From positions 88,910,001 to 88,974,000 of the forward strand of contig NC_086108.1 of the NCBI RefSeq assembly GCF_963921235.1: a stretch of 64,000 bases of DNA. Reading direction: 5' to 3'. The notes under the pieces were generated by a model. The model was given only the letters and a program-made list of their open reading frames with translations, had not been told where the DNA came from and did not search any database. Every line of letters begins with the position of its first letter. Positions within the stretch are counted from its first letter, which is position 1. The translations under genes were made by a program, and so were the position numbers. The DNA comes from Mobula hypostoma. Lineage: Eukaryota. Below are positions 25,011 through 64,000 of this stretch, one piece after another.

Positions 25011-25029
25011 GTTAGAATATTAGTGTGGA

Positions 25030-36110: not shown

Positions 36111-37513
36111 TAGAATTGAAAATCATCTTTAAAATTTAACCTTTATGTTATACTTGCATTTAACCTTTCAAAATGTGAAAATATTTCTCAAAAATACTCA
36201 TTTAAGTTTCTTCTAAATTTTTTTGGGCTTTTTGTGAACTGTCCATGAGCAAACTTACTTTGAGGACAACGGATCGTCCTTTAAATCTACTGCAATGACC
36301 TCAATGTTTCAGGATATACACTCAAGTGATTAGGTCTGACATGCTGTCTTTGTTCAAAGGTTGCAGCTTTGAGTCCAATCTTTGACATGCCTCTTCACTC
36401 TGTCAGTGCAATCATCGCCCTTGCTGCATCACTAACTAAATTTCATTGAAGTGCAACATTCACACCTCTGGCCTAGTTACATGAATTAATCCACAGCTCT
36501 GTGAAACCAGCAGGTCCTTATTTTTTCCCCTTCATTACAGTTTAAATTTGTGATTGCTGTTACTTTCTGACTCATGGGTTCCTCTGCATATGGCTACATG
36601 TCACTTTTTCCAGAGTGTAACGTTTTAAGCAGAATCCTTTCAATTCAGTTTCCAAAAGGAAATGATCAGATGTAATCACCCTGGGGATCAGAAATAACGT
36701 ACAATAGACCCTTAATAATGAATGTTCCATGGGTTAACCCCTCCAACACTAAAATTTCTTATTAATTTGCAAAACTATAACTGAAAACTGAAGACTGACT
36801 ACATATTGAGGCAGGTTTAAGATCCATGCATTTAGTGACACATTTAACAGAGCAAAATAATTGCAACAGTTTTGAAACTGAACGGCATTTGGCTTTCTAA
36901 ATTGTCTGCACTCAAGCTTTTTTAAACCCAGTGGTTGAGCATTACACCCTGTTATTGGTTTCCACATAGAATTCAGGTGCAGAGTTCCATTTTCACATTC
37001 AATATGCTGCAAAATTCATTGAAGGGCCAATGTAGAAATTTCAAATCATGGACATTACTTAACATTGGTAAAAAGAGAGATTACTCTCAATTTTGACATA
37101 GAGATGATTCCACCATTTAGTCATATCTTAAAGACTCTCAAAGCTGGTTTCCATTGAAGTTCCTGAGATATTTTGTTGGAGAATATTATTCCAGGGTGAA
37201 TTAATAAACATTCCACTTGTAAGGTTCAATTTATAGAACTATTCATATCAATTTTAAAACCTATCCACTGTGCTTTAGGGTAACAATAAGTACCAAAAAG
37301 ATGTGAAGTTGTTTTAAATGTTGAACCTCTATGCTCGTTGGGTAATCACCTCTCAGATTCTCAGCAGAGTAAACCTGATGAGAGGTCCGTGACGCTATTC
37401 ATTTCAATGGAAATTGGAGGGTTCCAGACGTTAAACATAAGTAGATTCCTCTCTATTTTTAATACTGTGTGTGTTTATCTTAATGATTTCATTAAATTTC
37501 ATCTTCATTTAAG

Positions 37514-37712
37514 TAGCACATCAAAATGCTGCAGGAACTCAGCAGGTCAAGCAGCATCTATGGAAAGGAATAAAGAGTCAATGTTTCTGGCCAAAACCAT
37601 TCTTTGGGACTGACTTTATTCCTTTCCTTAGATGTTGCCTGACCTGCTGAGTTCCTCCAGCTTTTTGTACGTTTACTCTAGATTTCCATCATCTGCAGAA
37701 TCACTTGTGTTT
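37514..37712. mobile_element. Older Penelope terminal-repeat fold-back
   Basis: aaatgctgcaggaactcagcaggtcaagcagcatcta...tagatgttgcctgacctgctgagttcctccagc in inverted arrangement. Confidence 0.78.
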
Positions 37713-39172: not shown

Positions 39173-40064
39173 ACTTGATGGTGGTATTAGCCCCACCCTC
39201 ATACATCTGAAAACTTATCCTGTTTTACCTTGTCACCAACATTGCCAGACCTTCTACGTATTTCCCACCTTTTCAACTTACAGACAGATACTGATAAAAG
39301 GATGCTACAAATTGCCAACACATTTTTGAGAAATATTTCAGAAAAACTTTAATCTGATGCTGTATAATAATAACTGTCAGGCAGACACTATTGATCATTT
39401 TTTATTAATGCAGAAATCTCTTTAATTTTTGAAAGAAAATAAGGTCACAACTGATTGAAAAATATATCTTTAGATATATAAAATAGCAGATTTGACACAT
39501 GAAGGAAGGAGAGGTACCACACTGAAATGAAAAGCTGTCATTTATGTTTTCTCAGTGGATTTTTTTTTGTGCAGAGATCAAGGTTCAGTACTTGTGAAGA
39601 CATCTTCCTGGTCCAGACATAATGAAGGATATTCACGATCAATATCCAACAAGAGCTCAGGGCAAGACTGCTGAACGATTCAGGCAGTTAACTGTATCAC
39701 ATAAACACTTACTTGTCTTTGAGAAAAGATCTATAAGGAGATTCAGTATGTTGAAAGCTTGCTGCGTTAGTGATCTCAAACCATGCCAGAATTAATGAAA
39801 TGAAGTTGCTTTGAAATTACACAACCACGAGAATTAACATTAATTTTGCCAGTTATATTAATCAGAACCTTAAAGAGCTCCAGTCTTAGCAATATAATGT
39901 TTAACCAGGTTGATTTGAATAACATATAACATTTGCTGAAGTGAGTTTGACTATTGAACACAAAAGTTTATAAAACTTTGACAACTTTCACAGTAAAAGA
40001 AAACAGCAGAAAAATAAATGAAGGCAGATTTATCATTCATTGGAAGGTTTGTCACTGACCTTAC

Positions 40065-40265
40065 CTTGAAGGCAGTAGAGTGGTGAAGGCTTCCCCGCCT
40101 GTTTGTGGAGTGAAGTGTTCAGTCGGGGAGCTCCTCAGATTTTCGCCTCGCAGCTGTTAAGTGCTGCAATGTATCAACATATCATAAATTCCTCAGGTCA
40201 CAGTCTGGCACAGGAAATCATTTAACAAAATAATGAAAGCTATGGTTTACGGCGACACAGTTATC
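40065..40265 (-). other. Putative internal non-coding (5'UTR) exon of a host gene, 201 bp; tentatively ZBTB20-like
   Basis: Minus strand: acceptor gttttactgtgtttaatttctgcag|GATAAC and donor TTCAAG|gtaagg; unique, CpG-retaining, stops in all three frames. Resemblance to a vertebrate ZBTB20 5'UTR exon (..CACTCCACAAACAGGCGGGGA..CCTTCACCACTCTACTGCC..) is from memory only and was not checked. Confidence 0.7.
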
Positions 40266-40425
40266 CTGCAGAAATTAAACACAGTAAAACTTATGCTCCC
40301 TTATCAATATTAAATTCAGATGCACCAGAAAACTTTGCAACTGAAGAAATCTGCATTAGTGGTTAATTTGAAAGAGCTCAATTTTTTATTTGATTTTCTT
40401 ATTATGCAATTGAAGGTAAGATTTT

Positions 40426-40657
40426 AAAAACGCAAACACGAGGAAATCTGCAGATGTTGGAAATTCAAGCAACACACATCAAGGTTGCTGGTGAACGCAG
40501 CAGGCCAGGCAGCATCTCTAGGAAGAGGTACAGTTGACGTTTTGGGCCGAAACCCTTCATTCAGGACGAAGGGTCTCAGCCCGAAACGTCGACTGTACCT
40601 CTTCCTAGAGATGCTGCCTGGCCTGCTGCGTTCACCAGCAACCTTGATGTGTGTTGG
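40426..40657. mobile_element. Young Penelope terminal-repeat fold-back insertion with perfect 16-bp TSD
   Basis: TSD TTGAAGGTAAGATTTT at 40410-40425 and 40658-40673; inverted arms of about 90 bp (40470-40560 versus 40565-40656). Confidence 0.92.
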
Positions 40658-40927
40658 TTGAAGGTAAGATTTTGTTACTTTTATATGGCGATTTGGTAGG
40701 ATATAAAGTAAGCATATCTCCACATAAATATAAATTGTAATGCATTATATCTATGTGGCATTTTCTTTGTTACTTTTAGTTTTAAAAATCTTGTAAAGAG
40801 CTGGTTTCTGACGCAGGGTCTGGATAATTTTGACTCCCTCTGATTTCAACCTTGTCTGCCTTTCCTCTTCTACTAACCACTCCCCTTCTACAGCTTTTAC
40901 CCAGAAGGTTGCTGTAAATGCAAAACC

Positions 40928-43900
40928 CTCACAAAATGCCAGAGGAACTTAGCAGGTCTGGCAGCATCAATGGAGGGAAATGAACAGTTGATATTTCAGG
41001 CCATGACGTTCATCAGAACTGGAAAGGAAGGGGGAAGATGCCAGAATAAGAAGGAGGACAAGCTACAAGGTGGTAAGTGAAGCCAGGTGGGTGGGAGGGT
41101 GAATGAAGAAGCTGGGAGTTGATGGGTGGAATGAAGGACTGAAGTAGGAATCTGATAGGAGAGGAGAGTGGACCATGGGAGAAAGGAAAGGTGGAGGGAT
41201 TCCTTCAGAGGTGATAGGCAGGTGAGGAAAGGCAATGAGGTAAGAGGGGCACAGAGTGGGGAATTGTAAAAGCTGGTGGGGGGGCAAGGGGAAGAATCAC
41301 TGGAAGTTGGAGAAATCGATGTTTATACCATCTGGTTGGAGGCTACTCAGACGGAATATGAGATGTTGCTCCTCCAATCTGAGAGCAGTGGCCTCGTTGT
41401 GGCCATCAGAATGGGAACGGGGATTGGAAATAAAATGGTTGGCCACTGGGTACTCCTGCTTTAGATGGATGGAACAGAGGTGCTCAATAAAGTGGTCCCC
41501 CAATCTAGATCAGGTCTCTCTTATAATGTGTAGACCTAATGCTTTTAGAGCAATGACTCCCTGTAGTACTACGTATGGACTAATAACTTACCAATGTGCT
41601 TTGATCTGTTGTCACTCTTTCTCTCTCTCACTGCAATGTGAATACACCAGTTAAAGCCATCTCCCACGTATATGATTTTATTTAATTGATATGTAGGTGC
41701 ACAGACACAACAAATTGGCGATGAGTACAAACCTGAATGTCAGAGAATATCACCAATTGCACTGGCAGTTACGGGATGATTACAGAATGAGACAGCGAGA
41801 GGAAAGAGTTAAACAATATGGAGTACGCTGTCACAGACGCTAACAAAGGGACACGTGAGTATTTGCCTAGCACCCAGTGTAAGACGCACAACGAGCAAAG
41901 TTAAAGTAAAAATAATGTAGCGATGGCTTTAGTTGGGAAAGTTGAATACAGTAATTTGATAATGCTAATGAAGGCTGGGAGTCATATATTGAGAGGGTTG
42001 AACTGTATTGTAATGTGAACAATATGGATGAGGAAAAGAAAGCTCCCAAGACTCTTAGCTTAATGGGTGCTTAAATGTACGGTTTCTTACACAACCTGGT
42101 AACTCCTGAAAAGGCAGGACAAAATTGCTGCAATTTTACAAAATCACTTGGGCACAAAACCACTGGTAATAGCTGAGACATTTAGAGTTCACAAAAATAA
42201 CCAGTCAAAGCATGAAAGCATTTCTGAATACATTACAGAACTGCACAAACTTTCCCAATACTGTGACTTTAGAGTTGGACTTTTTGATACATTAAGGGAC
42301 AGGCTTGGATGGGGCATGTATAGTCAAAGCACTCAAAAGAGGCTACTGTCAGAAAGAGACCTAACCTTAGAATGGGCATTGAACATTGCAATATATTTAG
42401 ACACTGCAGCCAAGGATGCAGCAGAACTACAGAAAAAGTGGTTAAATGTGAAATACACAAAATGCCCCTGAATAGTGCAAAAAGCCAAATATGTAATTGA
42501 TGTGGCAATTCCTCCCATGATTCAAATGACTCTTGGTTCAAGAAAAAGTCTGCAGAAGGTGTCATAGACAAGGTCACGTAGAGGGAATGTGCAAGGCAGA
42601 CAAAAAGCACACCAAGTGAAAGGTTTCACACACAAAACTAGCAAATGCATTAAGTGACCGAATGTGAAACAGAATCAGACAACACAGGTGAGCTGTCATG
42701 CCTAGAACTGCATAGTATTACTGAAGCAGATCACAAAATCATCTGGATCACAACAGATGTGTCTGGTGTAAAACTGAAAATGAAGCTGGATATGGGGTCA
42801 GCTTTGTCTATAATTTCAGGGGCTGACAGCAACAGACTGTTTTCTAAGCTACCATTAGAGAAGACCTTAGTGACGCTAAAGACCTACGCAGGTGAAAAGG
42901 TGTCTCCCAAAGGTAAACTGAAAGTGGATGTGATGTTTGGAGGCCAAAGACAGCAGTTAGAGCCTTATGTGTTGAAAAGTGGAAGGCCAGCACTTTTCAG
43001 ATGTGAACGGTTGAGAAAAGTCCAACCAGACAGGCACACAATCAAAGTTCTCAATGAGTCGTCAACAAGTAACTGCACCCCTGATGATAGCACTAACCAG
43101 AGACTGGCACAACTGTTTAATGCTATAATGAGAAGGTAGTAGAGATGAGCATGAAGGACACCTGGGTACAGATAAGATGAAGAGGCTCGCCTGGAGCTAC
43201 ATGTGGTGACCGGGAATAGATAGACAGATTGAAGACGTGACTAAAAGCCTTCTGGGATGCCAAAAGGTTTGAAATGTAACCCCACAGACACCGTTGTACC
43301 CATGGGAGTGGTTGTTGTCACCATGGCAAAGAGTTCATATTGATTTTCCGGGCCATTCATGGATTCTATGATTCTGAGTGCTCATTCAAAATGGCTGGAG
43401 GTCATACCAATGAAGTCAACCACCTCAGAAAAGGCTTTCCACTCTGAGTGCTATCTTCACCAGAAATAGCTTACCTGAAAAAAATTGTGAGTGATAATGG
43501 ATTACAATACACATCAGAAGAGTTCAGACTGTTCATGAAGAAAAATGGCATCAGTCATTTCAAGTTAGCTCCTCACCACCTGGCAATGAATGGATTAGTT
43601 GAAAGGTTTATGTAAACCTTCAAGAAGTCCATTAAAGTTATGGACAATGAGAACATTTCTCCACAGCATAAGGTGGACAATTCCCTTTTTGTGTATCGGA
43701 ACTCTGTTTATGTGACAACAAAGCAAACACCTGCAATGCTGTTCATGAGTGGGAATCTGAGATTTCACATAGACCTCCTGAAACCAGATCTACAGAGGGA
43801 AGTACAGAATAAACAGTTCAGCCAGTTGCCAAGTGAAGCAGCAAGGAGCTTCATGATTGGACAGGAAGTCCTAGAGCATGCTCACCAAGAGGCCAAGTGG

Positions 43901-45992
43901 ACACCTGGTAGGATAGCTACAAGAACTGGACTACTGTTCTTCACAGTCGACGTTGGAGATGGACACGTCATGTGGACGAGATACTGGACGCTCAACTGAA
44001 GAACAAAGTGGAGTCAACCGCATCCAACAAGACAGAAAAATTGCAGTCACCGGATTTACCTCTCAGTGATGATCATGTCACTGACAGCAATGTGACACCA
44101 GAAACCAAGGATGTTGCCTTTGACAAGACACCTGCCAAATTTAATGGATCCAGAGGTGCTACAAGAACATTGGCTTTGATAAGGCACCTACCAAACCTGA
44201 AGTCACTCCACAGGTCCAGTGGCACTATCCTGCAAGAAACAGAGCACCATCCAAAACACTGAATCTTTTACTATAGTGAAGTTGGTAATGGACCATTATT
44301 GTGAAAGCATGTTTATTTGGAATACAGTTTCTAAAAGGGAAATTGAATGTTTTGTACCTATACAGTTTTATATTACATTAATCTAAAGGGGGAAGAAGTG
44401 TAATGTATGGATCTATTTCTTTTAGAGCAATGACTCCCCTTAGCACTATGTATGCACTGGTAACTTACCTATGTGCATTGATCTGTTGTCTACACGTGTA
44501 TTGATTGCTCTCCCTCTCTCTTTCTCTTGCTGCAGTGTGAATACATCAGTTAAAGCCATCTCCCATGTGCGTGCTTTTATTTAGTTGATATGTAGTTGCA
44601 CAGACACAGCATCACCAGTGTAGAGGAGGCAGTATCAGATGCACTGAATACAGTAGACAATCCCAACAGATTTTCAAGTGAAGTCTTGCCTCTCCTGGTA
44701 GTTCTGTTTGGGACCCTGAATGGAGATGAGGGAGGAGGTGAACAGGCAAGGGATAAATGCCAGGAGGGAGACTACTGGGGAGGGATGAATGGACAAGAGA
44801 ATCATGGAGGGAGTGATCCCTGCAGAAAGTGGAGATTTGGGAGGAGGGAAAGATTTGTTTGGTGTTAGGGTCCCATTGAAGTTGATGGAAGTTGGGGAGA
44901 ATGATATGCTGGATGTGGAGGCTCATGGGGTGGTAGGTGAGGACAAGAGGAACTTTATCCCTGTTAAGGTGGTGAGAAGATGGGGTGAGCATGGATATCT
45001 AGAAAATGGAGGAGATATGGGTGAGGGCAGCATCAATGGTGGAGGAAGGGAAACTCCATTCTTTGATGTCCTGGAAAGGAAAGCCTCATCCTAGAAACAG
45101 ATGTGGCAGAGACAAAGGAATTGAGAAAAGGGAATAGCAATTTTACAGACAACAGGGTGGGAAGAGGCCTAGTCAAGATTGCTTTGGGAGTTGGAGGGTT
45201 TATAAAAGACGTCAGTAGAAATTTTGTCTCCAGGGATGGATCAGAGTTCAAGAAAAGGGAGAGGAGTGTCAGAAATGGACCAAGTGAACTTAAAGGCAGG
45301 GTGAAAGTTGAAGGCAAAGTTTATGAAATTGATGTGCTCAGCATGGGTACACGAAGCAGCAACAATGCAGTTGTCCATGTAGTGTAGGAAGAGTTGGGGA
45401 GTATTAGCTGGGAAAGCTTGGAACACTGACTGTTCTATGTAGCTAACAAAAAGGCAGTTATAACTGTGGTTCATGTGGGTGCCCTTGGCTACTCCTTGAG
45501 TTGGGTGGAAGTGGAGGAGCAGAAGGAGAAATTATCGAGTGTGAGGGCCAGTTCTGTCAGGTGGAGGAAGATGGTAGTGGAGGGGAACTGGTTGGGTCTG
45601 TTGTCGAGAAAGATGTAGAGAGATTTAAGGTTTTCTTTATGGAGGATAGAAGTCTATAGGGACTGGGAATCTGTAGTAAAAATGAAGTGACTCTCCTCCC
45701 TTATCAGATCCCTTCTTCTCCAGCCCTTACCTTTTCCACCTATCAACTCATACTTCATTCTCCCTACCCCACTCACCTGGCTTCGCCTATCATTTTTAGC
45801 TTGTACACCATCCTCTCCCACCTTATTATTGCTTCTTTTCCTTTCCTTTCTGGTTCTGATGAAGTGCCTTAGCCCAAAATGTTGATTATTTATTCCCTTC
45901 CATAGATGCTTCCTGTCTCACTGAGTTCTTCCAGCATTTTGTGCGTGTTGCTCAAAATTTCCAGCATCTACAGAATTTCTTGTATTTATGAG
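40928..45992 (-). mobile_element. Penelope-like retroelement (RT C-half, GIY-YIG end, terminal repeat) with an inverted terminal repeat at about 45690-45992; split by a Gypsy element
   Basis: Minus ORF 45241-45474 (..SYNCLFVSYIEQ..LFLHYMDNCI..FHPAFKFTWSISDTPLPFL, decayed YIDD), 44612-44992 (RDKVPLVLTYHP), 41297-41503 (PVANHF..LEEQHLIFRLSSLQPDGINIDFSNF); TSD ATGCAAAACC at 40918-40927 and 45993-46002. Confidence 0.9.
41522..44611 (+). mobile_element. Ty3/Gypsy LTR retrotransposon with both LTRs, decayed gag-protease-integrase, no RT/RNaseH
   Basis: 5' LTR 41522-41712 and 3' LTR 44399-44611 align; PBS-like ttggcgatgag at about 41715; PPT aaagggggaagaag before 44399; gag from ATG 41923 and ORF 42148-42471; protease-like LDMGSALSII in ORF 42654-43139; integrase HEGHLG from 43150 and ORF 43640-43999. 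Confidence 0.92.
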
Positions 45993-46914
45993 ATGCAAAA
46001 CCTGTACTTTTACTTCACAATAATTACTGCAGAGTATAGGGAACTAATCAGTTCCAAGTGAGGTAGTGAGTCACTTGCACCAAATTTCACTACAACTGTT
46101 GACAGAGCCATTGACTACAACATTTTTTCTGCACTTGGAAACTCCTCACCAGACAAAGCAAAGACAGAGATCCCTTGGTTCTCCCTTTCCATGACTTCAG
46201 TGTACATTTTCCCCTTCCCTCCACTTTCAGCATTCTGAAGGGAACAATCCCTTTGTGACCCCCTGAGCTCCTCTTCTCTATCTGTCAACCACCCTCCTTC
46301 TCATAACACCTTACCACACAACTACGTGAGGTAGTTTCCTGCCCGCCAACCAAGGACCCAAACAGAATTTCCATCTGAAGCAATGATTCAATTGCTGTTT
46401 ATTTTCAGTGCCTGCAGTTTTTCACTTTGATTTTCACTTGGCACATGTAGTTTTAGAGATGCAATTGATTTCTGAGCCTTTCATCTATAAATGAAAATAA
46501 AATCATTGATTTTAAGAGAAAGATATATTATCAACATGATCTCCTATTATTTTCATTTTCATATCATTTTGGACTCCTCTTAAATATCTATATCATATTC
46601 CAGCTATTCTCTGGTTAAGAAGTTTCTCCCAAATTGCTGAATGCATTCATGATTCTTGGTTTTGCATTACTTCATGAAAGAACATTTTTTTCTGTATATT
46701 GTAGCTATCAAATTATTCAAGTTGTAATTTTAGTGGCCCACATTGGACACTCTCCTTTATAACGAGAGTGAAGAAATAATCAATGTCCTGGCCTCAAGCC
46801 GAGTTGCTCTGCGGTACAGCAAAAGTATATCAATTAAAATATTGACTGTGTATTTCTATGAAAGCTCCATTATTTCAGTTTGTTGGAAATTTCTCCACAT
46901 GTGAAGAGAACCAT

Positions 46915-47036
46915 TGTCACACTGGGTGCGCCGAGAACGGACCCCAATGCGAGACACGGACACTGAGGTACAAGGAACAGGACTTATCCTGTCACGTCCC
47001 TACTCCAGTCAAGTCCTCAGCGCCCCCAGTGTGACA
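46915..47036. mobile_element. 122-bp mini element: TG...CA ends, 21-bp terminal inverted repeats, 5-bp TSD ACCAT
   Basis: Left TGTCACACTGGGTGCGCCGAG versus right (reverse complement) TGTCACACTGGGGGCGCTGAG, 19/21 identical; ACCAT at 46910-46914 and 47037-47041. Confidence 0.85.
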
Positions 47037-47144
47037 ACCATAACTCCAATAACTCAAAAGAACATGAACACCATCTGTACACCAACATACAGAAACTAAT
47101 AAAACACCAACACTAAGATGCAGAATAAACCAGCCCACTAATAT

Positions 47145-47460
47145 GGAATCGGAATCACTGACGAATGTCTTGAGATTTGTTTTGTGGCAGAAGTACAGTG
47201 CCGTACATAAGGTATACTATAAGGTAGAACAAAAAATAAAAAAAACATAAATAAATAGGCACAAAGAGAGCAGTGTAGTGACACAGTGTTCAAGAGTTCA
47301 TGGGCTGTTCAGAAATATGATGGCAGAGGGGAAGAAGCCGTCTCCAAAATACTGAGTGTGTGTTTATGTAGGTCACTGTACCTCCTATTTGATGGTAGTA
47401 ATGAGGAAAGGACATGTCCTGGGCAGTGGGGTCCTTCCTGATGGATGTGGCCTTTTTCAC
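47145..47460 (-). mobile_element. Rex1 3' fragment
   Basis: Minus ORF 47290-47472 (KKATSIRKDP) and antisense tail. Confidence 0.75.
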
Positions 47461-47509
47461 AACCCTGAACATACATGCTCATTTTATCCTTAGTCCATGA
47501 AATGAACCC

Positions 47510-47890
47510 GATATGTTCATTCGTTCTTTATGTGCCATGTCGTAAGGCATGGATGATCGCGGTCTTGCCATGACCATGACTGTTCTACAGAAGTGGTATG
47601 CCATTGCCTTCTTCCAGCAGTGTCTTTACAAGACAGGTGACCGTAGTCATTATGAATAACCTTCGGAGACTGCCTGGCTGGCGTCAATGGTCACATAACC
47701 AGGACTTGTGATATGTACCAGCTGCTCATATGACCGTCCAGCACCTGTTCCCCTGGCTTCAAGTGACCCTGATCATGGGGCTAAGCAGATGCTACACCTT
47801 GCCTTGCCCTAGGGGTGACCTGCAGGAGTGCCTTGAACCTCTTTTGGTAGAGATGTATCTCCACCCCACCATTCTTTCCACAGAAAGACT
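47510..47890. mobile_element. Unclassified interspersed repeat fragment
   Basis: GC-richer block starting gttcattcgttc (short tandem tail in antisense); family not assigned. Confidence 0.4.
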
Positions 47891-48509
47891 CCAAGCTCCA
47901 AGGGAATACCTCCACTAGAATAACAGCTCCCAGGGAACACCTTCACTAGACGAACTGCAAGATGGAGAAGATGACACACCAATATCTCCTCAAGGCCAGC
48001 TGGGGAAACATATTGCCAATGATGTTTGCATCCCATAAGTGAATATAATAAAGACATTTGAGGAGTATAAAGAAAGACCTTGTAATGTATCTCTTTGTTG
48101 CAACTCTCTACAATCAGGAACTAACAATTGGGTGGGGAAATAAGAGTTGGATCTCTGTATTGCACCTTCCTCTGAAAGGGGTTAAAATCTTGAAATACAC
48201 ATTTGCAACTAGGTGGGAAGTATGATCTTTGTCTAACTGTCAGAGAAGAGCAGTGGTCATAACTATAGGCTCATAGTAGTTGTTTGTGCAATGAACAAAG
48301 TGAATGTAGTCTGAAAGTAGAGTTTATTGAAAGATCACAGGGGAAAGAAAACAAGGCAGAACTTACAACAGCCACAATTATAAGGACAGCATAAAACTGC
48401 AGGGAGTAGAAGATAGCTATCACATTGATTGACAGTAGATGTGATTGATAGTAAAATGACCAAGTCTTTTGCAATTTATCAGGGAATAATATCAACAATA
48501 TATGCAAAC

Positions 48510-48728
48510 TTTCCCCTCTGCCATCCGATTTCTAAATGTACATTGAACCCATAAACACTATATACCTCAATACCTTTTATTTATTTCTGTTTTTGCTACT
48601 TACTTTAACTTAACAATTTAATTACTGTAATTCTTTTTTTCTCTATAGTTATCATGTATTGCATTGTGCTGCTGCTGAAAAGTTAACAAATTTCACGACA
48701 TATGCTGCTAATATTAAATCTGATTCTA
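48510..48728 (+). mobile_element. Rex1-type 3' tail
   Basis: ttcccctctgccatccgatttctaaatg...attaaatctgattct, antisense-equivalent to 31340-31570. Confidence 0.75.
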
Positions 48729-48890
48729 AAACCCGCTTAAAAATACTGTTTCATTAAAAAGCGATGTGACTCTTTTGGGGTGGGGAATTGTCAGGACAAC
48801 AAATAATAGCAGAAAGGTTCAGGGCCAAGCATTATAGATTGTGATGCTTTAAACCAAGTTGTAAATGGAGAACTGCATCTTTGTTTTGGT

Positions 48891-49772
48891 AACACACATC
48901 AAAGTTGCTGGTGAACGCAGCAGGCCAGACAGCACCTCTAGGAAGAGGTACAGTCGACGTTTCAGGCCGAGACCCTTCGTCAGGACTAACTGAAGGAAGA
49001 GTGAGTAAGGGATTTGAAAGTGGGAGGGGGAGGGGGAGATCCAAAATGATAGGAGAAGACAGGAGGGGGAGGGATGGAGCCAAGAGCTGGACAGGTGATT
49101 GGCAAAGGGGATATGAGAGGATCATGGGACAGAAGGCCTAGGGAGAAAGAAAAGAGGGAGGGGGGGGAAAAACCCAGAGGATGGGCAAGGGGTATAGTCA
49201 GAGGGATATAGGGAGAAAAAGGAGAGAGACAGAAAAAGGAGAGAGAGAGAGAAAGAATGTGTGTATATAAATAAATAACGGATGGGATACGAGGGGGAGG
49301 TGGGGCATTAGCGGAAATTAGAGAAGTCAATGTTCATGCCATCAGGTTGGAGACTACCTAGATGGAATATAAGGTGTTGTTCCTCCAACCCGAGTGCGGC
49401 TTCATCTTTACAGTAGAGGAGGCCGTGGATAGACATATCAGAATGGGAATGGGATGTGGAATTAAAATGCGTGGCCACTGACCCATAATCCTGTCCCATG
49501 ATCCTCTCATATCCCTTTTGCCAATCACCTGTCCAGCTCTTGGCTCCATCCCTCCCCCTCCTGTCTTCTCTTATCATTTTGGGTCTCCCCCTCCCCCTCC
49601 CACTTTCAAATCTCTTACTAGCTCTTCCTTCAGTTAGTCCTGACAAAGGGTCTCGGCCTGAAACGTTGACTGTACCTCTTCCTAGAGGTGCTGCCTGGCC
49701 TGCTGCGTTCACCAGCAACTTTGATGTGTGTTGCTTGAATTTCCAGCATCTGCAGAATTCCTCGTGTTTGCG
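48891..49772. mobile_element. Young Penelope-like insertion: 3' end plus inverted terminal repeat, perfect 13-bp TSD
   Basis: TSD TCTTTGTTTTGGT at 48878-48890 and 49773-49785; inverted arms of about 240 bp (48891-49131 versus 49491-49733); GIY-YIG C-terminal peptide VATHFNSTSHSHSDM..LEEQHLIFHLGSLQPDGMNIDFSNF in ORF 49308-49829. Confidence 0.93.
48952..48987 (-). ncRNA. Minimal type I hammerhead ribozyme motif in a Penelope terminal repeat
   Basis: Minus strand AGUC-CUGACGA-AGGGUCUCGGCCU-GAAAC-GUC-GACU: stem I AGUC/GACU, conserved CUGANGA and GAAA boxes, GUC cleavage triplet, vestigial palindromic stem III. Confidence 0.8.
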
Positions 49773-50277
49773 TCTTTGTTTTGGTGTTTTATTTATTGTT
49801 TGGAGCATAATTTCAATCACTATGGCCATTCAATATGCTGCACTGGTCTAAAACATTGGATGTTATGAACTTCTATTACCATAAGGCTTGAATACCCAGC
49901 CCAATATGGACAGTTACATGCAAATAAAGTAAACTCAATAATGTGATTTTGTTCCAGCGCTGCTGAGGTTAAAAATTTTTAATTTCAATTATCCTCTAAG
50001 GCAGTTGGCATGAACTAATGATGAAGAATGATAGATTTTTTTTAGGAAGCTATAGGCACAACCTTGAAGTGATCCAGGTGAAAATAAAGGTACTGTGCTT
50101 CATATGAAGGCCTGCTCTGTGGGGTTTGTCCCGCAATTACAGTGGTTGTGGACAAGGTCAATTCTATTGAAAGAGGAATTCCTGTTTTTATAGACGTGCC
50201 TGTTTAAGCTTTTGTATTTGCACTATCAGCTAATTAATCTTCATGGATCATAGGGAAGTAGCAAACAGTAGTCAGTT

Positions 50278-50580
50278 ATTTGCCACAGTAGCATGGTGGT
50301 TGGTATGTTGTATTACAGCCTGGGGCATTGCAGCTTTTGCAGTTCAATCTGACACTGCCTGTTAAGAGTTTGTACATTCTCTCTGTGAATGTGTGGGTTT
50401 TCTCCGGGTGCTCTGGTTTCGTCCCGCAGTCCAAAGACATATCGGTCAGTAGGTTAATTGTTCGTTGTAATTTGTCCTGTGATTGGGTAAGTGTTAAACA
50501 GGTGGGTTGCTGAGTGGAGCGACTCGTTGGGCCAGGCGGGCCTGTTTCATGATATATTTCTAAATAAATAAATAAATAGT
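50278..50580 (+). mobile_element. tRNA-headed SINE
   Basis: Head gccacagtagcatggtggtt, core gtgggttttctccgggtgctctggtttc, tail (taaa)n; antisense sister copy at 57060-57372. Confidence 0.82.
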
Positions 50581-50819
50581 CATCCAAATGTACTGCTATT
50601 AATCTCATGATAACATTATTGTGTCATAGTGGACAGCAGTGCTATATGAATGATTTAGAAATTGTTCTTTAATATTATTATTCTTGATAATCTGTGATGT
50701 TACTAAGCAGTTTACCTGTCCTTGGCCACTAGAGGACCTGTTTGAGCTGGAAATATAATAGAGACCTCCATCTGAATTCTCATGCCGCTGCACTGTTGTA
50801 TAACGATAATGACACAGAA

Positions 50820-52140
50820 GAACATCAAATACAAAGCATCACATAGAAAATATGGTACTTGTACGGTGCAAATGGGCCATGCTTCACTCAGAGTCTGTCT
50901 TTTGTTTCCTTCTCCAAGAATGTAATTTTAGCCCTTTCCTCTATTCTTCCTCATATACTGTATTTGTCCGTGCTCTTCTTAAACAAATCAGCACTATTTC
51001 ATGTGCTGGTGAGTTTCACATTCTTAGTATTCATTGCGTAAAGGAATTGGCTCAGAGTTCCCTATTGGATTTCTTGGTGATTTTCATGTATTGATGGCCT
51101 CTTGCTATAATTCTTCCTTGTAAGTACAACTGTTTACTCTCTATCTACTTTAGCAAAACTTTTCATAATTTTAAAAGCTTCTATTAGATTAGTTTTCAGC
51201 ATTTCACATCCAGAGAAAAGGGATCCAGTCTATTCATAGTTTCCTGAAAAGTAGACCTTGTCAACCTTCTTTGCATTTCCTCCATTATCATTGCATTTCT
51301 TTGTGTAATTGGATGACCAGAACAATACACAATACTCCAAATGTGGTCTAATCAAGGATTTCTGCAAAACTACCCCATGATTCAATTTTATCCGTTAGAA
51401 ATAAAGCCTACTTTTTACAGTTTGCTTTTTCTTATTGCCCTGAAAACATGTGGCATGATTTAAATGATGGATGCATTTCTATTCGAAGATCTCTTTGTTG
51501 TTCTGCCACATCTAAAAATGCACTGTTTAAATAATATTATTTCCCACTTCTTTCCACCAAAGTGTATCTGTTGAAACTTACTTGCCAATAGTTTACCCAT
51601 CCTTCAAGTGTTTTAATAAGCCTCCTTATTGGCTGTTGTGCTCTTTTGTATTGATTAACAATGCTAAAGTTCCTTAAGTTTGCTATTGATTCCAAATTCT
51701 GAATTATTAATATAAATTAATCAGTTCCAGCACTGATCCGGCGAAATGCCACCATTCATTTACTTCCTTATTCTCAGTTCCCAAAGTCTGCATTCCACCT
51801 AGGAGTCATCCTTCCTGCTATTTTCTCCAGCCTCCACATTCTCTGGCAGTCATTAGTTTATTATGAAATCTCTTCTCAAATATCTTTTGAAAATCCATTT
51901 AAATTAATTCTGCCATTTTACAGTTTTCTGCCCTCTGTGTTTTCCTTACAAAAAATGCACTACTGTTGGTCATGTAAGTATTTCTATTCTGAAGTCATGT
52001 TGAGTATTCACTTTCAAATCTTCTGTACCTAAATATTCTCTTTCTTCTTTAGATGGTGATTCCATTTCTAGTACTATTAGCTCTACGCTTCACTGGACAT
52101 TTCCAGGCCCATCTCAAAATGGGCATTATGACAAACATCT
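50820..52140 (-). mobile_element. Ancient, highly decayed CR1/L2-type LINE
   Basis: Antisense remnants such as gaccagaacaatacacaatactccaaatgtggtctaatc (LIRPHLEYCV.FWS) and cttttgaaaatccatttaaat (YLDFQK-like). Confidence 0.65.
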
Positions 52141-52550
52141 CAATAGGTCAATAGGTACATTTAATGTCAGAGAACTGTATACAATATACACCTGAAATTC
52201 TTTTTCTTCGTAAGCGTTCACGAAAATAGAGGAGTACCCCAAAGAATGAATGACGGTTAAATATTAGAATCCCAAAGCCCCCTAAGTCCCACCTCCCACG
52301 CACAAGCAGCAGCAAAGCAACGGCCCCCCAGCTCCCACCAGCAAAAAAACCTTGACCCCCCCCCACTGAGCACTCAAGTTTGCAACGAAGCATCAATAAA
52401 GACACAGACTTGCAATACCCCAAAGACTACTCGTTCACCAGGTAATTTGACATACCACAGTCTCTCTTTCTCTCCCTAATAAGGGAAAAAGAGATGCCCC
52501 ATTTCACAGCGAGAGGGGAGACATAACAAACAACTCACTGATTTATGATT
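52140..52550. mobile_element. Younger unclassified repeat inserted in the decayed LINE
   Basis: Abrupt compositional change; begins with short tandem caataggtcaatagg, consistent with an antisense retroposon tail. Confidence 0.5.
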
Positions 52551-53325
52551 CTGTTGCTACTAGTTCTTTGGCATTGAAATCTTTTCTGATTATTTGATAA
52601 ATATACACAGTAATGCCTATGCTATCTCTTCACTAGAATCCTATCAAATGAGTCAATGCAATCTATTCTATCATGGGTTTGTTTATTTTTATTAAATGCG
52701 TGTATAAGCTCTTTATCTGTTTTCTACATTTATTGTGTCATCACCCAATATTGGGTCTAGTTGCACTCTCTCCATATTAGGTATGAACTCATGATTTAAT
52801 ATTTCTGCAAACTCCTTGTTGTTCACTGTGTTACTTTGTTACCGATCCTTTCATGGTCCTAAATTCATTATGAATTTCCTTTCTTTTAAATGAAGATGCA
52901 GTTGCAGTTCTCACAGGATGTTATTATAAATCTGGAACAGATTCAATAATCTCATGTTCCCCACACAATTTGTAATCTTTGTGGAACACCGCGTGTTTCT
53001 GTGTGATACTGTAAGCATCGCCATCTCCACAAAAGAAAAATAATTGTTCTACGCTGGGTAATTGAATAGGAAATGTAAATACAGATATATCCAACTGAGA
53101 TGAGAGAGAGTATATGCCTAGTTCAATGGCGGAGATGTTTTATCTGCATTTGTCATTGCTATGGACGCTGTATCTGTAGATGCCTTTGGTGTACCTAAGG
53201 AATACAGGAATTAAAATAAAACCTTTCATTGTTAGAGCTGTCTCGCATCTTCCAGAATAGAAAACAATCATAGCAATCTCTGTAAGGGATTGTGTGGGAC
53301 TGAAATTCACAATGTTTATCATTTA

Positions 53326-55515
53326 CACTCAGTGGCCATTTTATTAGGTACCTCCTGTGGCCGCTGAGTGCATGTACATGGTCCTTTGCTGCTGTAGCCC
53401 TTTCACTGCAAGGTTCAACGTGTTGTGCCATCAGAGGTGCTCCTCTGCACTCCACTGTTGTAACACCTAATTATTAGAGCTACTTTTGCTTCCTGTCAGC
53501 TTGAACCCATCAGGCCATTCTCCTTTGACCTCTCTCAATAGCCAGCAGCTTTCGCCCACAGAACTATCGCTCACTGGATTTTATTTTTGGTTTTTTTGCA
53601 CCATTCTCTATAAACTCTAGAGACTGTTGTGTGTGAAAATCCCAGCAGATCAGTAGTTTCTGAGATACTCAAACCACTCCATCTGGTACCAAAATTCATT
53701 CCAGGGTCAAAGTCACATTTCTTCCCTGTTCTGATGTTTGGTCATCTACGGCATATCTGCCCTCCTTCTTCAAAGAAAAAGGCTTCCTTTCTCCACTGTC
53801 GGAATAAGGCCACACTGAGATTGGAGGAACAACACCTTATATTCCGTTTGGGTAGCCTCCAACCTGATGGCATGAACATCAATTTATCAAAACTTTCTGT
53901 AATGCCTCCCCCCCCACCCTTCACAATTTCCCATCCCTTTGTCCCTCTCCCATGTTATCTCCTTGCTCACTTGTCACCTCCCTCTGGTGCTCCTTCCCCC
54001 CCCCACCCTTTTTTCTTTCTTCCATAGCCTTCTGTCTCTTTCACCAATCAACTTCCTACCTCTTTGTTTCATCCTTCCCCCTCCAAGTTTCACCAATCGC
54101 TGGTGTTTCTCTCTCCCCTCTCTTCACACTTCAAATCTACTCCTCAATTTTTTATCTCCAGTCCTGCTGAAGGGTTTCGGCCCGAAATGTTGACTGTACT
54201 CCTTTTCATAGATGCTGCCTGGCCTGCTGAGTTCCTCCAGCATTTTGTGTGTGTAGTTCGGCTTCCCTTCCACCACCATCAATGCTGCCCTCACCCGCAT
54301 CTCTTCCATTTCACGCATGTCTGCCCTCACCTTCATCCTCCCGCTGTCCCACCACGGATAGGGTTCCTCCTGTCCTCAGCTACCACCCGACCACCCTCTG
54401 CGTCCAGCACATAGTTCTTCATAACTACTGCAAACTGCATTGGGATCCCACCATCAAGCACATCTTTCCCTCCCCCCACTTTCGGCTTTCTGCAGGGATC
54501 ACTCCCTATGTGGATCCCTTATCCATTCATCCCTCCCCCTCCTGGCACTTAACCTCGCAAGTGGAACAAGTACTACATCTCCCCCTACACCTCCTCCATC
54601 ACTACCATTCAGGGCCCCAAATAGTCCTTCCAAGCAAGGCAACATTTCACCTATGAGTCTGTTAGGGTCATTTACTGTATCTGGTGCTCCCGGTGTGGCC
54701 TCCTGTACAGCTGTGAGACCCGGTATAGATGACGGGATCACTTTTTGAGCACCTACCCTCCATCTGCCAGAAAAAATGGGATCTCCCAGTGGCCACCCAT
54801 TTTAATTCCACTTCTCATTCCCATTCCAATATGTCTATCCATGGCCTCCTCCACTGTGGTGACGAAACCACGTTCAGGTTGGAGAAGCAACACCTTATAC
54901 CTGTCTGGATAGGCCCCAGTCTGATGGCATGAACATCGATTTCTCAAAATTCTGGTAATGGCACCCCCTCTCCTTCACCTTTCCCTATTCCCATTTCCCC
55001 CTCTCAGCTCATCTCCTTACCTGCTCATCACCTCCCTCTGGTGCTCTGCCCTCTTTCTTTTCTTCTATGGCCTTCTCTCCTCTCCCATCAGATTCTCCCT
55101 TCCCCATCCCTTATCTCTTTCACCACTCAACTTGTCGGGTCTTTACTTTACCCCTTCCCTGTCCTGGTTTCATATATCACCTACTACATTTCCTTCCTTC
55201 CTTTCCTTCCCTCCCCCCACCTTCTTCCTCTGACTTCTCATCTTTTTTTCTCCAGTCCTGATGAAGGGTCTCAGCCCAAAACATTGACTATTTACTTTTC
55301 TCCATAAATGTTGCCTGACCTGCTGAGTTCCTCCAGCATTTTGTGTGTGTTGCTTGGATTTCCTGCATCTGCACTTCTTCTCTTGTTTGTAATTGAACCT
55401 CTTGACCATGTCCACGTGCTTTTATGAACTGCGTTTCTGCCACATGTTTGGCTGATTAGATATATGCATTAACGAGCAGGTGTACAGGTATACCTAATAA
55501 TGTAGCTACTAAGCG
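53326..55515 (-). mobile_element. Tc1-derived element split by two tandem Penelope fragments
   Basis: TA|cactcagtggccattttatta start; antisense to 10976-11498; resumes near 55390 and ends taataatgtagctactaagcg. Confidence 0.82.
53745..55388 (+). mobile_element. Two head-to-tail Penelope-like 3' fragments (about 53745-54255 and 54260-55388)
   Basis: LRLEEQHLIFRLGSLQPDGMNI (ORF 53629-54027), DRVPPVLSYHP (54249-54656), PVATHFNSTSHSHSNM (54729-54932); each ends in a terminal repeat with a decayed hammerhead (about 54160 and 55254). Confidence 0.88.
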
Positions 55516-55832
55516 CATGTGTGAGTCTAACTCCGTCAACTTCCCACCAGTCCCCTGCCTCTACAAATACCACTTGTAGTCCTCTTACTCTGACTGACAT
55601 CTTTTGGATTTTTTTCTATTTCACTTGCTGTATTCATAATTTAGGTTATGCCACCATCTCATTGAGTTGCTGGAAAGTGCACTCGGTGACATCTGGCAAG
55701 GGTTAAGAGTCAGAAAACTGGACTCAATAGCTTAAATGGGAAGTAGCAGCTAATCAGACAATTCTGCCCTGTTGTCAGTGGGAAGGTACTATAGTTGCCT
55801 CCAATAATAGAAATATTGGGCTACATTGCATC

Positions 55833-56430
55833 CAAATCAGAGTCAGGTTTATTGTCACTGACTTGGATGTTGTGAAATTTGGTGTTCTCTGGCAGCACTG
55901 CAGTGGAAAGCCATAAAAAGTCTGTAAATTACACACGTAAATAGTGCAAATAAAGAATAATGAATTAGTGTTCATGAATTCAGGAACTGCTGATTGTGGA
56001 GGGTTTCTAGCCTCTTATGCTTCCTCCCTGATGGTAGTAATGAGAAGAGGGCATGTCCCAGATGGCCAGGGTCCTTAATGATGGATGCATCTTGATGGTG
56101 GGGAGCGTTGTGCCCATTTTGGAGATGGCTGAGTCGACAACCCTCTGAAGGCTTTTGTAATCCTGTCCATACTAGGCAGTGATACAACCAGTCACAATAC
56201 TCTCCACCGTACACTTGCAAGAGTCTCTTGATGACGTAGCAAATCTCCTCAATCTCCCATAAAAGTAGAGCCAGTGGCGTACCTTCTTCACGATTGCATC
56301 AATGTGTTGGACCTAGGACAGATCCTCTGAAACGTTGACACTGAGGAACTTGAAGCTCCTTACCCATTCCACCTCTGACCCCTCAATGACCCCTAGGGTG
56401 TGTTCTACCATCTTCTAGTTTTTGAAGTCC
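55833..56430 (-). mobile_element. Rex1 3' fragment
   Basis: Minus ORF 55972-56220 (ASIIKDPGHLGHALFSLLPSGRK). Confidence 0.85.
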
Positions 56431-57059
56431 TGAATGACATTTATTCAAGACATGGAGGTTGTGCTGGCTTACAAACTGAGTGTCACAACCTTCCCAAGTT
56501 CATGCTAGTTTACATACAATTACATTGCAAGCTACTGACCTGAACACCTTTTCAGTCAAATGTCCTCAAATGGCTATCAACCTCAACCAACAACACAACC
56601 ATGAACAGTTTCACCTAGCTCTATAAAACAGTTGTGTGGGAGAACACTGGAACTTCATTGATCATATCAAAACAGTGAGATGTTGATTGTTTGAGGAATA
56701 CATGTACAACTTGAATGGGGTGGGTGACTTACCCTTTTTGATAATTCATCTGGGAACGTGGATAGTAAAACAGATCACTTTCTTTCTGTAGTGTGAGGTG
56801 GTCTCCAACGTTGTGTCAGTCTCATTTTAACTATTTGTTTCTCAGTTCAGTGGTCTTGAGGTCTTTGATGTTCCATTTCCAACAGGTTTTTTTTGCAATC
56901 TCTCTCCTCTTTTCCTATTGATACTGCTTCCTCCTTGAAGATGCTCCAGATTTTCAGATGATCAACTAGAATTTGTGATTGCCATCCTCAATCCCATCCC
57001 CAGAGATGCCCATCAACACCCACAATTATTTAACTAATCTGACTCTGAATCTTTTAAAA

Positions 57060-57372
57060 AATTATTTATTTCGAGATACAGTGTGGAATAGGCCCTTCTG
57101 GCCATTCAAGCCACATCGCCCAGCAACACCCAACAATCCCAGATTTAACCCTTACATAATCACGGGACAATCTACAACGATCGATTAACCCACTATCCAG
57201 TACTTCTTTGAATTGTAAGAGGAAACTGGAGCACCCAGAGAAAATGCATCCAACAGGGAGGGCAGACAGACTACTTATAGAGAGCAATGAGGGGATCGAA
57301 TCCCGAACTCCGAACTTTGATGCCCCAAGCTGTAATAGAGTCGTGCTAACTGCTTCGCTACCATGGCACCCA
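57060..57372 (-). mobile_element. tRNA-headed SINE (same family as 50278-50580)
   Basis: Antisense match including gaggaaactggagcacccagagaaaa and ttatttattt tail. Confidence 0.8.
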
Positions 57373-58859
57373 AATCTGCCAGGATCAGTAATGGGGGCAA
57401 TAATTGCTTGACAGTGAGCCTGTTCTACTTAAGGAATAGAATGAACATCAGCCAAACTTGACACACAATTTTAAACTAAAGATTTAAATGCTGGTTTGAT
57501 CATTATAAATACTTGCACTATTTTTAAGTGCAAAGAATTGTTTCTTTTACCCCGTCATATTTGTTCATTTGTCTTTTAAATAAAATATATTCTTTACAAC
57601 CAATATTGTGAATAAAGCATCTGAAACATATGAAGGAAGATAAAACCAAATGGCGTTTTTGTGAAGGTTGAATGTTAGGAATTCAAACATTGGACTCTGC
57701 TAGGATCATAGCTGGTGCAAATTCATGGTGGCAAAGACAGCTTGCTGAGTGGAGCAATCATTTTATGCTGTTGTTATGGCTACAAGCATTACTGGCTGCA
57801 ATTTGTGGTTCTCACTATCTCCTCCAGCAGCCAGTTTTGGAAGAATGCAACTTCAAAACTTCTAATAGTCTTCAGTCCTTTCTTGCATATCAGAATGAGG
57901 CGATTAAATTGTGCATTCTGCTTATCGTTATTTTTCTAAAGGTCAGCTTTAATGATATACAATGTCTGACTGAAAGACTGATTTCTGCATGACAGCTATG
58001 AAGTCTGCTTTTACAAGCAGCTAAGGAAATTTGTTATTTTCTCTTTGGTTTCCCTGGTAACTGTACAAACCCTTCTATGTCTATAGAACCTGCTGACAAG
58101 AATGAGCTTTAGAAATCTCTCAATGTTTTCCAAATGGGCCACTTCTGCTGGTTAATAATTATTACACCAAATGAAAAAACACTTAACTCATCACAAGACA
58201 AACACATAGAAGCGAGTAACCTAACTTGTAGGCTTGGATTAACATACTTACTAGGACCCATCTGATTATTCCAATAAACTCAGAGCACAGTGTTTCCTGG
58301 TTAGTTTGGCTCTGGAATATTGTATTTGACTTCATTCTTTTTCAAGAATGTAGGAATCGCTGCCAAAGTAGGCATTTATTGCCCATCCTTAACTGTTTTG
58401 GTGAAGATCATGATGAGCTGTCTTCTTGAACTACAGCAACCCTTTTAGAGATTTCCCCCCTTATGTTGTTGGGTGGAACTCCTAAGATTTCAAACCAGTG
58501 ACAATGAAAGACGCAGGTAAATGAAAGCAGCATTAGGCTGTCTGGTCCCTAGCATCTTCCACCCCAATTCAATACAATAGTAAGAGTGGTCACATCTCCA
58601 AATCAGAATGGTGTGCGACTTGGAAGGGGGACCTCCAGTTGGTGGTGTGGCCCTGCACTTCCTGTAGGTGGCGGTCATGAGTTTGCACAGTAGCCAAAGC
58701 CAATAACAGTAATGCATTTTGCAGCTGGGTACTGGTACAAAATGCATTCACTCTGTGTTGATGGTGAAGTTGAATTCATCCAGGCAAGGGGAGAGTATTC
58801 TATCACGCTCCTTACTCATGCTTTGTATGTATGGCATACTTAACCTTCTTCAGTTGAAG

Positions 58860-59455
58860 CATCAAGTATAAAAGTTGGCTAGTTATATTGCATCTGTATA
58901 AAGCTTCAGTTAGGCTATCTTTGGAGTACTTTGTGCAGCTTTGGTCACTGCAATACAGACCGAATGTGGAAGCTTTAGAGAGGGTGCAAAAGAGATTCAC
59001 TAGGATGTTGGCTGAATTGGAGAGTATGAGATATAAAGAAAATACAGACAAATATGGATTGTTCTTACCTGGAGCGCCTACGGCTGAGGAGTGACTTGAT
59101 GAAAGTACAGTACATTAAAGAGTAGACAATGAGTGTCTTTTTCCCATGGTGGAAATTTCAAATACCAGAGGGTATTTGTTTAAGGTGAGAGGAGGAAAGT
59201 TTATAGCAGGTGTGTGAGGCCTGTTTTTTTTACATGGAAAATGGTAGGTACCTGGAACGTGTTTCCAGGTACAGTAATAGAAGCAGAAACAGCAGCGGTG
59301 TTTACGAGGCATTGAGGTAAACACGTGAATAGTCAGGGAAAAGAGGTTACAGACCATGAGCAGGCCCATGGGATAACTAGACAGGCATCATGTTTATTGC
59401 AGACGTGGTGGGCTACATAGCCTCTTCTTGTGCTGTACTATTCTATGTTCTACTG
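58860..59455 (+). mobile_element. CR1 3' fragment
   Basis: ORF 58888-59094 (LYKASVRLSLEYFVQLWS..ALERVQKRFTRML); tail ttctatgttcta. Confidence 0.85.
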
Positions 59456-60084
59456 TACTCCAGTCATGGAACCCTGGTACTTTTATAAAATCTCAGTAGA
59501 GTGATCCATAGAGACAAGAAATGATGGGAATAAGTCTTTCATTGAACTGCTGTGTTTTGTAAAAGTTTGAAGGCAAACTGAAGGGCACACACTCATTTCA
59601 TTGAACATCTGAAATCCTTGCAGAAAGCAGTAATTATTCTGACTCATACTGGCAGTTCTATATTCAAGCCACCGTTTTTTCAAAGCTCTGCAGGAATGAT
59701 TTGGTCTTTCCTGAGGTGAACAATGCAGTATTTTATGAATTATTTCACCACCATCACCTTGAGGCATTACTGCATGTCATGTGATTTAATGAATACTTTA
59801 CATCATGTCTAGCATCGATCTTTTCCTCCAATTAGGAAAAGGCTGGAGTATAAATTAGAAAATGGGCTTCCTTAATTCAAATTAAGACATTTGGAATGTT
59901 CTTACTGATTTCCATTTTATAAATTTAATGCTGACAAGTTCCTGTATTTTATGCCTGGTTTCATATTCATTGGGTACATTGTATATTAATGTTAGTGTGT
60001 GACAATCCTTCTGATCAGGTTAGGATAGGAATGGTGTTGTATTAAGTCCAGTTAAAGCAACTTTAGCTGAAATATTCACTCTCC

Positions 60085-63890: not shown

Positions 63891-64000
63891 TATATTTCAC
63901 AAAGTCCATTCGATCTGTCATTGACTTGAATTTGGCAATTGGAATGAGTCTCAAATGTTCAAATTATCAAGTAATTCAAATGAAATGTCTTAGAATTCAG

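What the first reader, a model, noticed from the sequence alone, without database searches (positions are those of the whole stretch)
48952..48987. Core-intact hammerhead ribozyme motif on the putative host pre-mRNA strand
Seen: the minus strand reads AGUC CUGACGA AGGGUCUCGGCCU GAAAC GUC GACU, with both catalytic boxes, stem I and a GUC triplet. Known: Penelope-like elements carry minimal type I hammerheads with a very short palindromic stem III that are thought to cleave mainly as dimers. Inference: the exon at 40065-40265 is also on the minus strand, so this motif would be transcribed within the host intron. The inverted copy at 49636-49671 (core CUGACAA, triplet GUU) is transcribed earlier as its complement and could mask it, forming a built-in off switch.
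Basis: partly seen in the sequence, partly recalled or inferred. Interest (0 to 1): 0.72.

Follow-up and report, generated by a model that had tools for sequence, protein, structure and literature searches.

The report
Masked Penelope hammerhead relic in ray
The self-cutting RNA motif is really there, but it is the standard end-piece of an abundant jumping gene (Penelope-like) that landed in this ray's DNA as a mirror-image pair, a layout already described for this class; the motif is predicted to be folded shut and is likely an inactive relic, not a gene-control switch.

Summary
The motif is real: a minimal type I hammerhead on the minus strand at 48987-48952, with 1 descriptor hit against 0.025 expected. 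It lies in the 3' end of a Penelope-like element (PLE). The 882-bp insertion (48891-49772) has a GIY-YIG C-terminal remnant, a 242-bp inverted arm, a one-sided 40-nt tail and a 13-bp target-site duplication. That layout is published for PLEs, and three more such fold-backs occur in this window. The exon at 40265-40065 is spliced on the minus strand to 36680 in one contig; both exons have stops in all frames. Transcription across 48952 is not shown. Masking by the inverted arm is predicted, but it would be permanent and is redundant: the hammerhead stems are predicted at P≤0.003 even without the arm, stem III has no loop, 10.1-11.1 is G·U, and no intact partner lies on this strand in the window. 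The arm's two changes within the motif are CpG transitions. Verdict: an ordinary, likely silent retroelement relic; the 'off switch' is a by-product of insertion. A word search of this scan's notes returned 46 findings in at least 14 genomes; the 8 shown describe the same kind of thing.

The parts
48952..48987 (-). Minimal type I hammerhead motif (both boxes, extra A after A9, G10.1·U11.1, loopless AC/GU stem III, GUC; predicted cut 48956|48955)
48891..49480 (-). 5'-truncated PLE 3' end: GIY-YIG C-terminal remnant, 3' UTR/pLTR and hammerhead; ends without the tail
49308..49478 (-). End of the PLE ORF (C-terminal part of the GIY-YIG domain); best hit 95% identical, a Mobula protein
49491..49772 (+). 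Inverted, more deeply 5'-truncated copy of the same 3' end (242 bp pairs with 48891-49132; 9 differences) plus tail
49636..49671 (+). Hammerhead of the inverted arm, with G8->A and C17->U, both CpG transitions
49733..49772 (+). 40-nt one-sided PLE tail
48878..48890 (.). Left copy of the 13-bp target-site duplication
49773..49785 (.). Right copy of the 13-bp target-site duplication
40065..40265 (-). Host exon A, stops in all three frames (likely 5' UTR or lncRNA); donor confirmed by one spliced contig, acceptor from sequence only
36259..36680 (-). Host exon B, joined to exon A; 3' end inferred from a GTAAGT donor; stops in all frames

Best explanation
The hammerhead is the inherited terminal-repeat ribozyme of a Penelope-like retrotransposon whose 3' end was inserted here as an 882-bp fold-back with a target-site duplication, and it is likely silent because it is predicted never to reach an active fold. 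How it arose (inferred from published PLE biology): the element's enzyme cut the target and copied its RNA from two start sites 40 nt apart. This left one tail-less 590-nt arm on the minus strand and one tail-bearing 282-nt arm on the plus strand, both 5'-truncated. What happens now (predicted): if the minus-strand host transcript runs through, the plus arm's complement is made first. It can pair over 145 nt of the second arm before the ribozyme is even transcribed, then zips through it. Without that arm the core is still trapped by local hairpins; a loopless stem III needs a second copy, and none intact lies on this strand in the window. The two arms have since drifted (9 of 242 differences, 8 transitions). 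Shown: sequence, boundaries, duplication, tail, protein homology, one splice junction. Predicted: folding. Inferred: insertion mechanism and lack of cleavage.
For: PLE identity: the ORF remnant hits ray proteins at 75-95% identity (5 hits). The best hit, P0001, has a weak GIY-YIG match (E 5e-4, below Pfam's cutoff); many of its 60 longer relatives also carry RT PF00078. Architecture: 13-bp duplication, with 0 of about 2000 random flank pairs sharing >=11 nt; tail on one arm only. Three further fold-backs at 40426-40657 (16-bp duplication), 3579-3827 (8 bp) and about 37511-37715 (no clear duplication), with the tail arm on either strand. The same layout is described in PMC8557442 (passages) and PMC3846280 (passages); the two-start origin of the tail is in PMC11167929 (main text). 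Folding: stem I and stem II P<=0.003 in 48930-49010 and <=0.001 in the whole sense fragment without the arm; 0 with it; 242-bp duplex, -561.6 kcal/mol. Literature: a single S. mansoni min-HHR showed no cleavage, dimers low cleavage (PMC4209133, parts 1-2 of 4). The anole PLE hammerhead cleaved only with the element's protein, was dispensable for insertion in vitro, and gave no RNA-seq ends at the cut site. Decay: both boxes intact in only 3 of 13 aligned copies; the 11.1/12 dinucleotide is CG 2, TG 6, CA 4, AG 1. CpGs retained 5 of 5 in the minus arm and 3 of 5 in the plus arm, too few to differ. The minus arm has its own private change at 48929.
Against: The intact copy is the one on the strand of the host exon, and both in-motif differences fall on the other arm. 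Nearest-neighbour folding ignores tertiary contacts and proteins; one other copy (54160) does form both stems in its own context (P 0.84 and 0.92), so the trap is not universal. No cleavage or transcription data exist for this locus. No orthologous empty site could be examined (no genome held).
Confidence: 0.88

Rival explanations
1. Regulated off switch: the hammerhead can cut the host pre-mRNA and the inverted arm is kept to mask it, with release under some conditions (editing, helicases, fast splicing).
For: A minus-strand spliced exon lies 8.7 kb downstream. The arm is transcribed first and the duplex is predicted. The minus-strand copy is the only one passing the descriptor.
Against: No predicted active fold even without the arm. 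No loop in stem III and no intact partner on this strand. A 242-bp duplex is not easily reversed. The arm is a standard insertion product. The young-looking insertion (3.7% between arms) shows no selection signal. Transcription across the site is not shown.
Confidence: 0.03
2. Passive safeguard at family level: no switch at this locus, but PLE ends with a cleavable hammerhead in the sense of a host intron are purged unless they arrive as fold-backs, so masked copies like this one are survivors.
For: A bioRxiv preprint reports depletion of hammerhead retrozymes from Xenopus introns (10.64898/2026.07.22.740005, abstract and first part of Results). The one descriptor-passing copy here is in a fold-back.
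Against: One case only. Another minus-strand copy with both boxes (41020) is not seen in a close fold-back, though its stem II is broken. Min-HHRs barely cleave alone, so there may be little to purge.
Confidence: 0.06
3. The insertion lies upstream of the transcription unit or is otherwise not transcribed, so neither cleavage nor masking ever occurs. This is compatible with the best explanation and differs only in why the motif is silent.
For: No upstream exon was located.
Against: Exon A has a plausible acceptor, so it is probably internal. No CpG-island-like stretch lies between 40266 and 48952: no 500-nt bin there exceeds CpG o/e 0.56 or GC 0.40 among those listed.
Confidence: 0.3

Closest known systems
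Minimal type I hammerheads (min-HHR) in pLTRs of metazoan PLEs (Cervera and de la Pena 2014, PMC4209133)
   Same: Both boxes, 4-5 bp helix I, extra nucleotide between 9 and 10.1, palindromic 15.2-16.2 with no loop 3, position in the PLE terminal repeat, many dispersed truncated copies; that paper also notes pairs 100-700 bp apart on opposite strands (here about 650 bp).
   Different: Helix II is 4 bp here (7-8 bp in Schistosoma); 10.1-11.1 is G·U instead of the conserved G-C; rays are not among the vertebrates named in the parts read.
Inverted-pLTR-plus-tail insertions of EN+ PLEs (Craig et al. 2021, PMC8557442; Arkhipova et al. 2013, PMC3846280)
   Same: Inverted 5'-truncated copy joined at the 5' end, a 30-40 bp tail on one end only (40 here), short target-site duplication.
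   Different: No full ORF: only the last 56 codons or so remain; duplication is 13 bp against 8-10 bp in the rotifer examples.
PAc Poseidon element of Anolis carolinensis (PMC11167929)
   Same: Hammerhead just inside the element end; two end points separated by the tail (here about 85 and 125 nt past the start of stem II).
   Different: The ray family's relatives carry the CX2-5CxxC linker (61 of 65 proteins), which points to Neptune/Nematis rather than Poseidon; no protein is encoded by this insertion.
Domesticated intronic ribozymes (amniote RECK/CTCL hammerheads, PMC6155905 passages; CPEB3 ribozyme, PMC10919898 search listing only)
   Same: A self-cleaving motif possibly inside a host intron.
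   Different: Those are conserved across species at one locus; this one sits in a young-looking repeat copy with no evidence of conservation or activity.

Membership tests
PLE min-HHR (type I) | Catalytic boxes CUGANGA and GAAA, UH triplet | tested here: met
PLE min-HHR (type I) | Helix I of 4-5 bp and a helix II able to pair | tested here: met
   Complementary in sequence; 85% of cells paired over 13 copies, 3 of 500 shuffles as high; covariation no better than slid controls
PLE min-HHR (type I) | Extra nucleotide between 9 and 10.1; palindromic 15.2-16.2 | tested here: met
   A in 13 of 13 copies; ACGU palindrome
PLE min-HHR (type I) | Conserved G10.1-C11.1 pair | tested here: not met
   G·U in this copy and its mirror arm; G-C in 6 of 13 copies, so the family has it and this copy is a variant
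PLE min-HHR (type I) | Located in a PLE terminal repeat | tested here: met
   About 320 nt downstream of the GIY-YIG stop, same strand
PLE min-HHR (type I) | Self-cleavage as dimer or with element protein | not testable with these tools
   Folding predicts against it in context; no assay
Rfam hammerhead families | Covariance-model match | tested here: not met
EN+ Penelope-like element insertion | RT plus C-terminal GIY-YIG ORF | tested here: met
   Only the C-terminal remnant is in the insertion; RT and GIY-YIG are seen in relatives
EN+ Penelope-like element insertion | Inverted 5'-truncated copy, one-sided 30-40 bp tail, target-site duplication | tested here: met
Neptune/Nematis clade | CX2-5CxxC linker between RT and EN | tested here: met
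   In 61 of 65 fetched relatives; the region is not part of this insertion
Neptune/Nematis clade | RT phylogeny with named reference elements | not tested
   No reference sequences held
Domesticated intronic ribozyme / regulated switch | Lies inside a host transcript | tested here: inconclusive
   Splicing shown only for 40065->36680; upstream exon not found
Domesticated intronic ribozyme / regulated switch | Conserved at the orthologous site; selection on the core | tested here: inconclusive
   No relative's locus available; arm comparison shows no signal but has little power
Domesticated intronic ribozyme / regulated switch | An accessible active fold when unmasked | tested here: not met
   Prediction only: stems at P<=0.003 without the arm
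Non-LTR retrozyme | Head-to-tail tandem units without ORF | tested here: not met
   No tandem array here; copies are inverted and carry an ORF remnant

The most novel reading that the evidence does not exclude
Fold-back insertion is a family-wide licence for ribozyme-bearing PLE ends to sit in host introns: the mirror arm silences the hammerhead, so selection keeps core-intact sense copies mainly in fold-backs, and unwinding the duplex (editing, helicase, element protein) could unmask cleavage of this non-coding-exon transcript.
Probability: 0.06. Interest if true: 0.5.

Novelty: new member of a known kind. Interest (0 to 1): 0.1.

Why it matters
As it stands, little: one of many PLE ends (13 motif copies aligned from this 64 kb alone) with a published motif and a published layout. 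It is a clean example of the inverted arm, one-sided tail and duplication, and both arms share U11.1, which suggests the donor element moved with a non-canonical 10.1-11.1 pair. It would matter if masked sense-strand copies proved enriched in introns, which would show that PLE hammerheads cleave host RNA in vivo, an open question in the papers read.

Tried and rejected
Rfam: no hammerhead match. Own genome: none held, so no copy counts or orthologous site. Degenerate motif scans of viral and metagenome contigs: 0 matches each. RNA runs: no RNA holder listed; six runs guessed as RNA, all contigs. Laying four on 39001-59000 was swamped by repeat contigs; only 15 of about 2700 joints were shown, none from 40265; contigs cannot show RNA ends, strand or level. 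The excess of A>G and T>C places was rejected as evidence of editing: it mixes family copies and needs matched DNA. Host gene: 0 of 117 minus-strand ORFs of >=50 aa in non-repeat stretches hit Pfam; my splice-site scan missed both known exons, so its candidates were discarded. Covariation in 13 copies is not convincing: 3 pairs change on both sides, slid controls give 1-4. Blast rows lacking the 5' core or duplicating others were left out of the alignment (13 regions taken from the 18). The active dimer scored about 19 kcal/mol above the dimer minimum, but the model omits core contacts, so this is weak. Lunse et al. (dimer cleavage of PLE hammerheads) was not held and was seen only as cited in PMC6765202 (passages). 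No measured effect of G10.1·U11.1 was found (search, passage). Supplements of the papers were not read and may list shark or ray motifs.

Full report
Observation. A type I descriptor finds this one site in the window, against a mean of 0.025 in 200 dinucleotide shuffles, 5 of which had a hit. Rfam does not see it. The predicted cut is 48956|48955. The mirror copy at 49636-49671 has G8->A and C17->U.

What it sits in. The motif is part of an inverted repeat of 242 bp, 48891-49132 against 49491-49732, 96% complementary. Upstream on the minus strand, 49478-49308 encodes the end of a protein that matches ray proteins at 75-95% (best hits named Mobula and Hypanus). The best hit has a weak GIY-YIG match, many of its longer relatives carry an RT domain, and 61 of the 65 fetched proteins have the CX2-5CxxC linker that PMC8557442 ties to Neptune-type PLEs (passages). 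The insertion runs 48891-49772. It is flanked by a 13-bp direct repeat (0 of about 2000 random flank pairs share 11 nt or more), and only the plus arm carries an extra 40 nt. An inverted 5'-truncated copy, a 30-40 bp tail on one end and a short duplication are the described PLE layout (PMC8557442 and PMC3846280, passages). PMC11167929 (main text) explains the tail by two reverse-transcription start sites. Three more fold-backs of the family lie in the window: 40426-40657 (16-bp duplication), 3579-3827 (8 bp) and about 37511-37715; the tail arm is on the minus strand in two of the four and on the plus strand in two.

The motif against its family. Thirteen copies were aligned (truncated or duplicate rows left out). 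Both boxes are intact in 3 of 13 (48987-, 41020-, 3718+); the other two fail at stem II or the fourth pair of stem I. The extra A after A9 is in 13 of 13. Variation gathers at CpG sites: 11.1/12 is CG in 2, TG in 6, CA in 4, AG in 1. This copy therefore has G10.1·U11.1 where PMC4209133 (parts 1-2 of 4) lists G-C as highly conserved. Both arms share U11.1 and two other changes against the 40.5-kb copies, so it probably came with the donor (inference; conversion between arms is possible). Stems pair in 85% of cells, but covariation is no better than slid controls. The arms differ at 9 of 242 sites, 8 of them transitions; the two in the motif are CpG losses on the plus arm. CpG retention is 5 of 5 against 3 of 5, and the minus arm has its own change at 48929: no selection signal, with little power.

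Host transcript. One contig of run X1 covers 40064-40156 and continues at 36650-36679; the junction is GT-AG on the minus strand. The other three runs laid gave nothing there. Both exons have stops in all three frames, so this is likely a 5' UTR or lncRNA; 0 of 117 minus-strand ORFs hit Pfam. Exon A has a plausible acceptor, so an upstream exon is likely, but nothing places it beyond 48987 (one search was swamped by repeats). I put the chance that the insertion is intronic at about 0.7 (judgement).

How it would behave. Alone, the 36-mer is predicted to form stems I and II but to pair G5-G8 with C15.2-C17 (P about 0.97). With 20 nt of flank, or in the whole sense fragment without the arm, stems I and II fall to P<=0.003. 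With the arm, all core bases are paired in a duplex of -561.6 kcal/mol, and 145 nt of it can form before the motif is transcribed. Stem III has no loop, so a partner is needed, and none intact lies on this strand in the window. In published tests a single min-HHR did not cleave and dimers cleaved weakly; the anole PLE hammerhead needed the element's protein, with a minimal RNA of 172 nt past stem II, and left no ends in RNA-seq. This arm keeps only about 85 nt past stem II and lacks the tail (analogy across clades, inference). Against this reading: folding models omit tertiary contacts and proteins, one other copy forms both stems in its context, and no assay exists.

Verdict. It works like a silent PLE end, and it is a variant member of the PLE min-HHR class (one defining pair not met). 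On print: a search for hammerhead ribozyme + Penelope-like + shark gave one review, where 'shark' only explains the name; Penelope + Neptune + cartilaginous + genome gave one paper on protein fossils of transposable elements (listing only); a 2026 preprint reports hammerhead retrozymes in one chondrichthyan. The scan's own notes hold 46 findings for my search words; the 8 shown, two from this genome, describe the same kind of relic. They agree with my earlier stated reading but are not independent evidence. Interest 0.1; new member of a known kind.

Noticed in passing
window 40426-40657: Short PLE fold-back with two damaged hammerheads, a 16-bp duplication and a one-sided tail, 160 nt upstream of exon A's acceptor; close subfamily of the 48.9-kb insertion.
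   Followed up: partly
window 40265-40065 and 36680-36259 (minus): Two spliced exons with stops in all frames and several ATGs; host gene not identified; the X1 contig differs at 3 of 93 positions.
   Followed up: partly
window 53785-55395 (plus): Older PLE partial tandem: 3' end with hammerhead, then a truncated ORF and a second 3' end with hammerhead and tail; both motifs damaged.
   Followed up: partly
window 44600-45990, 24785-25454, 40910-41610, 60045-60480: Further decayed PLE pieces; the first two may be older inverted insertions; no duplication found at the three checked.
   Followed up: partly
window 41020-40985 (minus): Old copy with both boxes and a 5-bp stem I that has U-A at 2.1-1.1 instead of C-G, but a broken stem II.
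   Followed up: partly
window 42103-44262 (plus): Decayed LTR-retroelement-like stretch (weak aspartyl protease match, E 0.013); class judged from the ORF text, not tested.
   Followed up: no
window 17388-18377, 28022-29856, 62154-63963: LINE-type RT fragments (RVT_1 hits for two ORFs); CR1-like by recalled resemblance.
   Followed up: no
window 18501-19500: Highest CpG observed/expected in the window (0.68-0.81).
   Followed up: no
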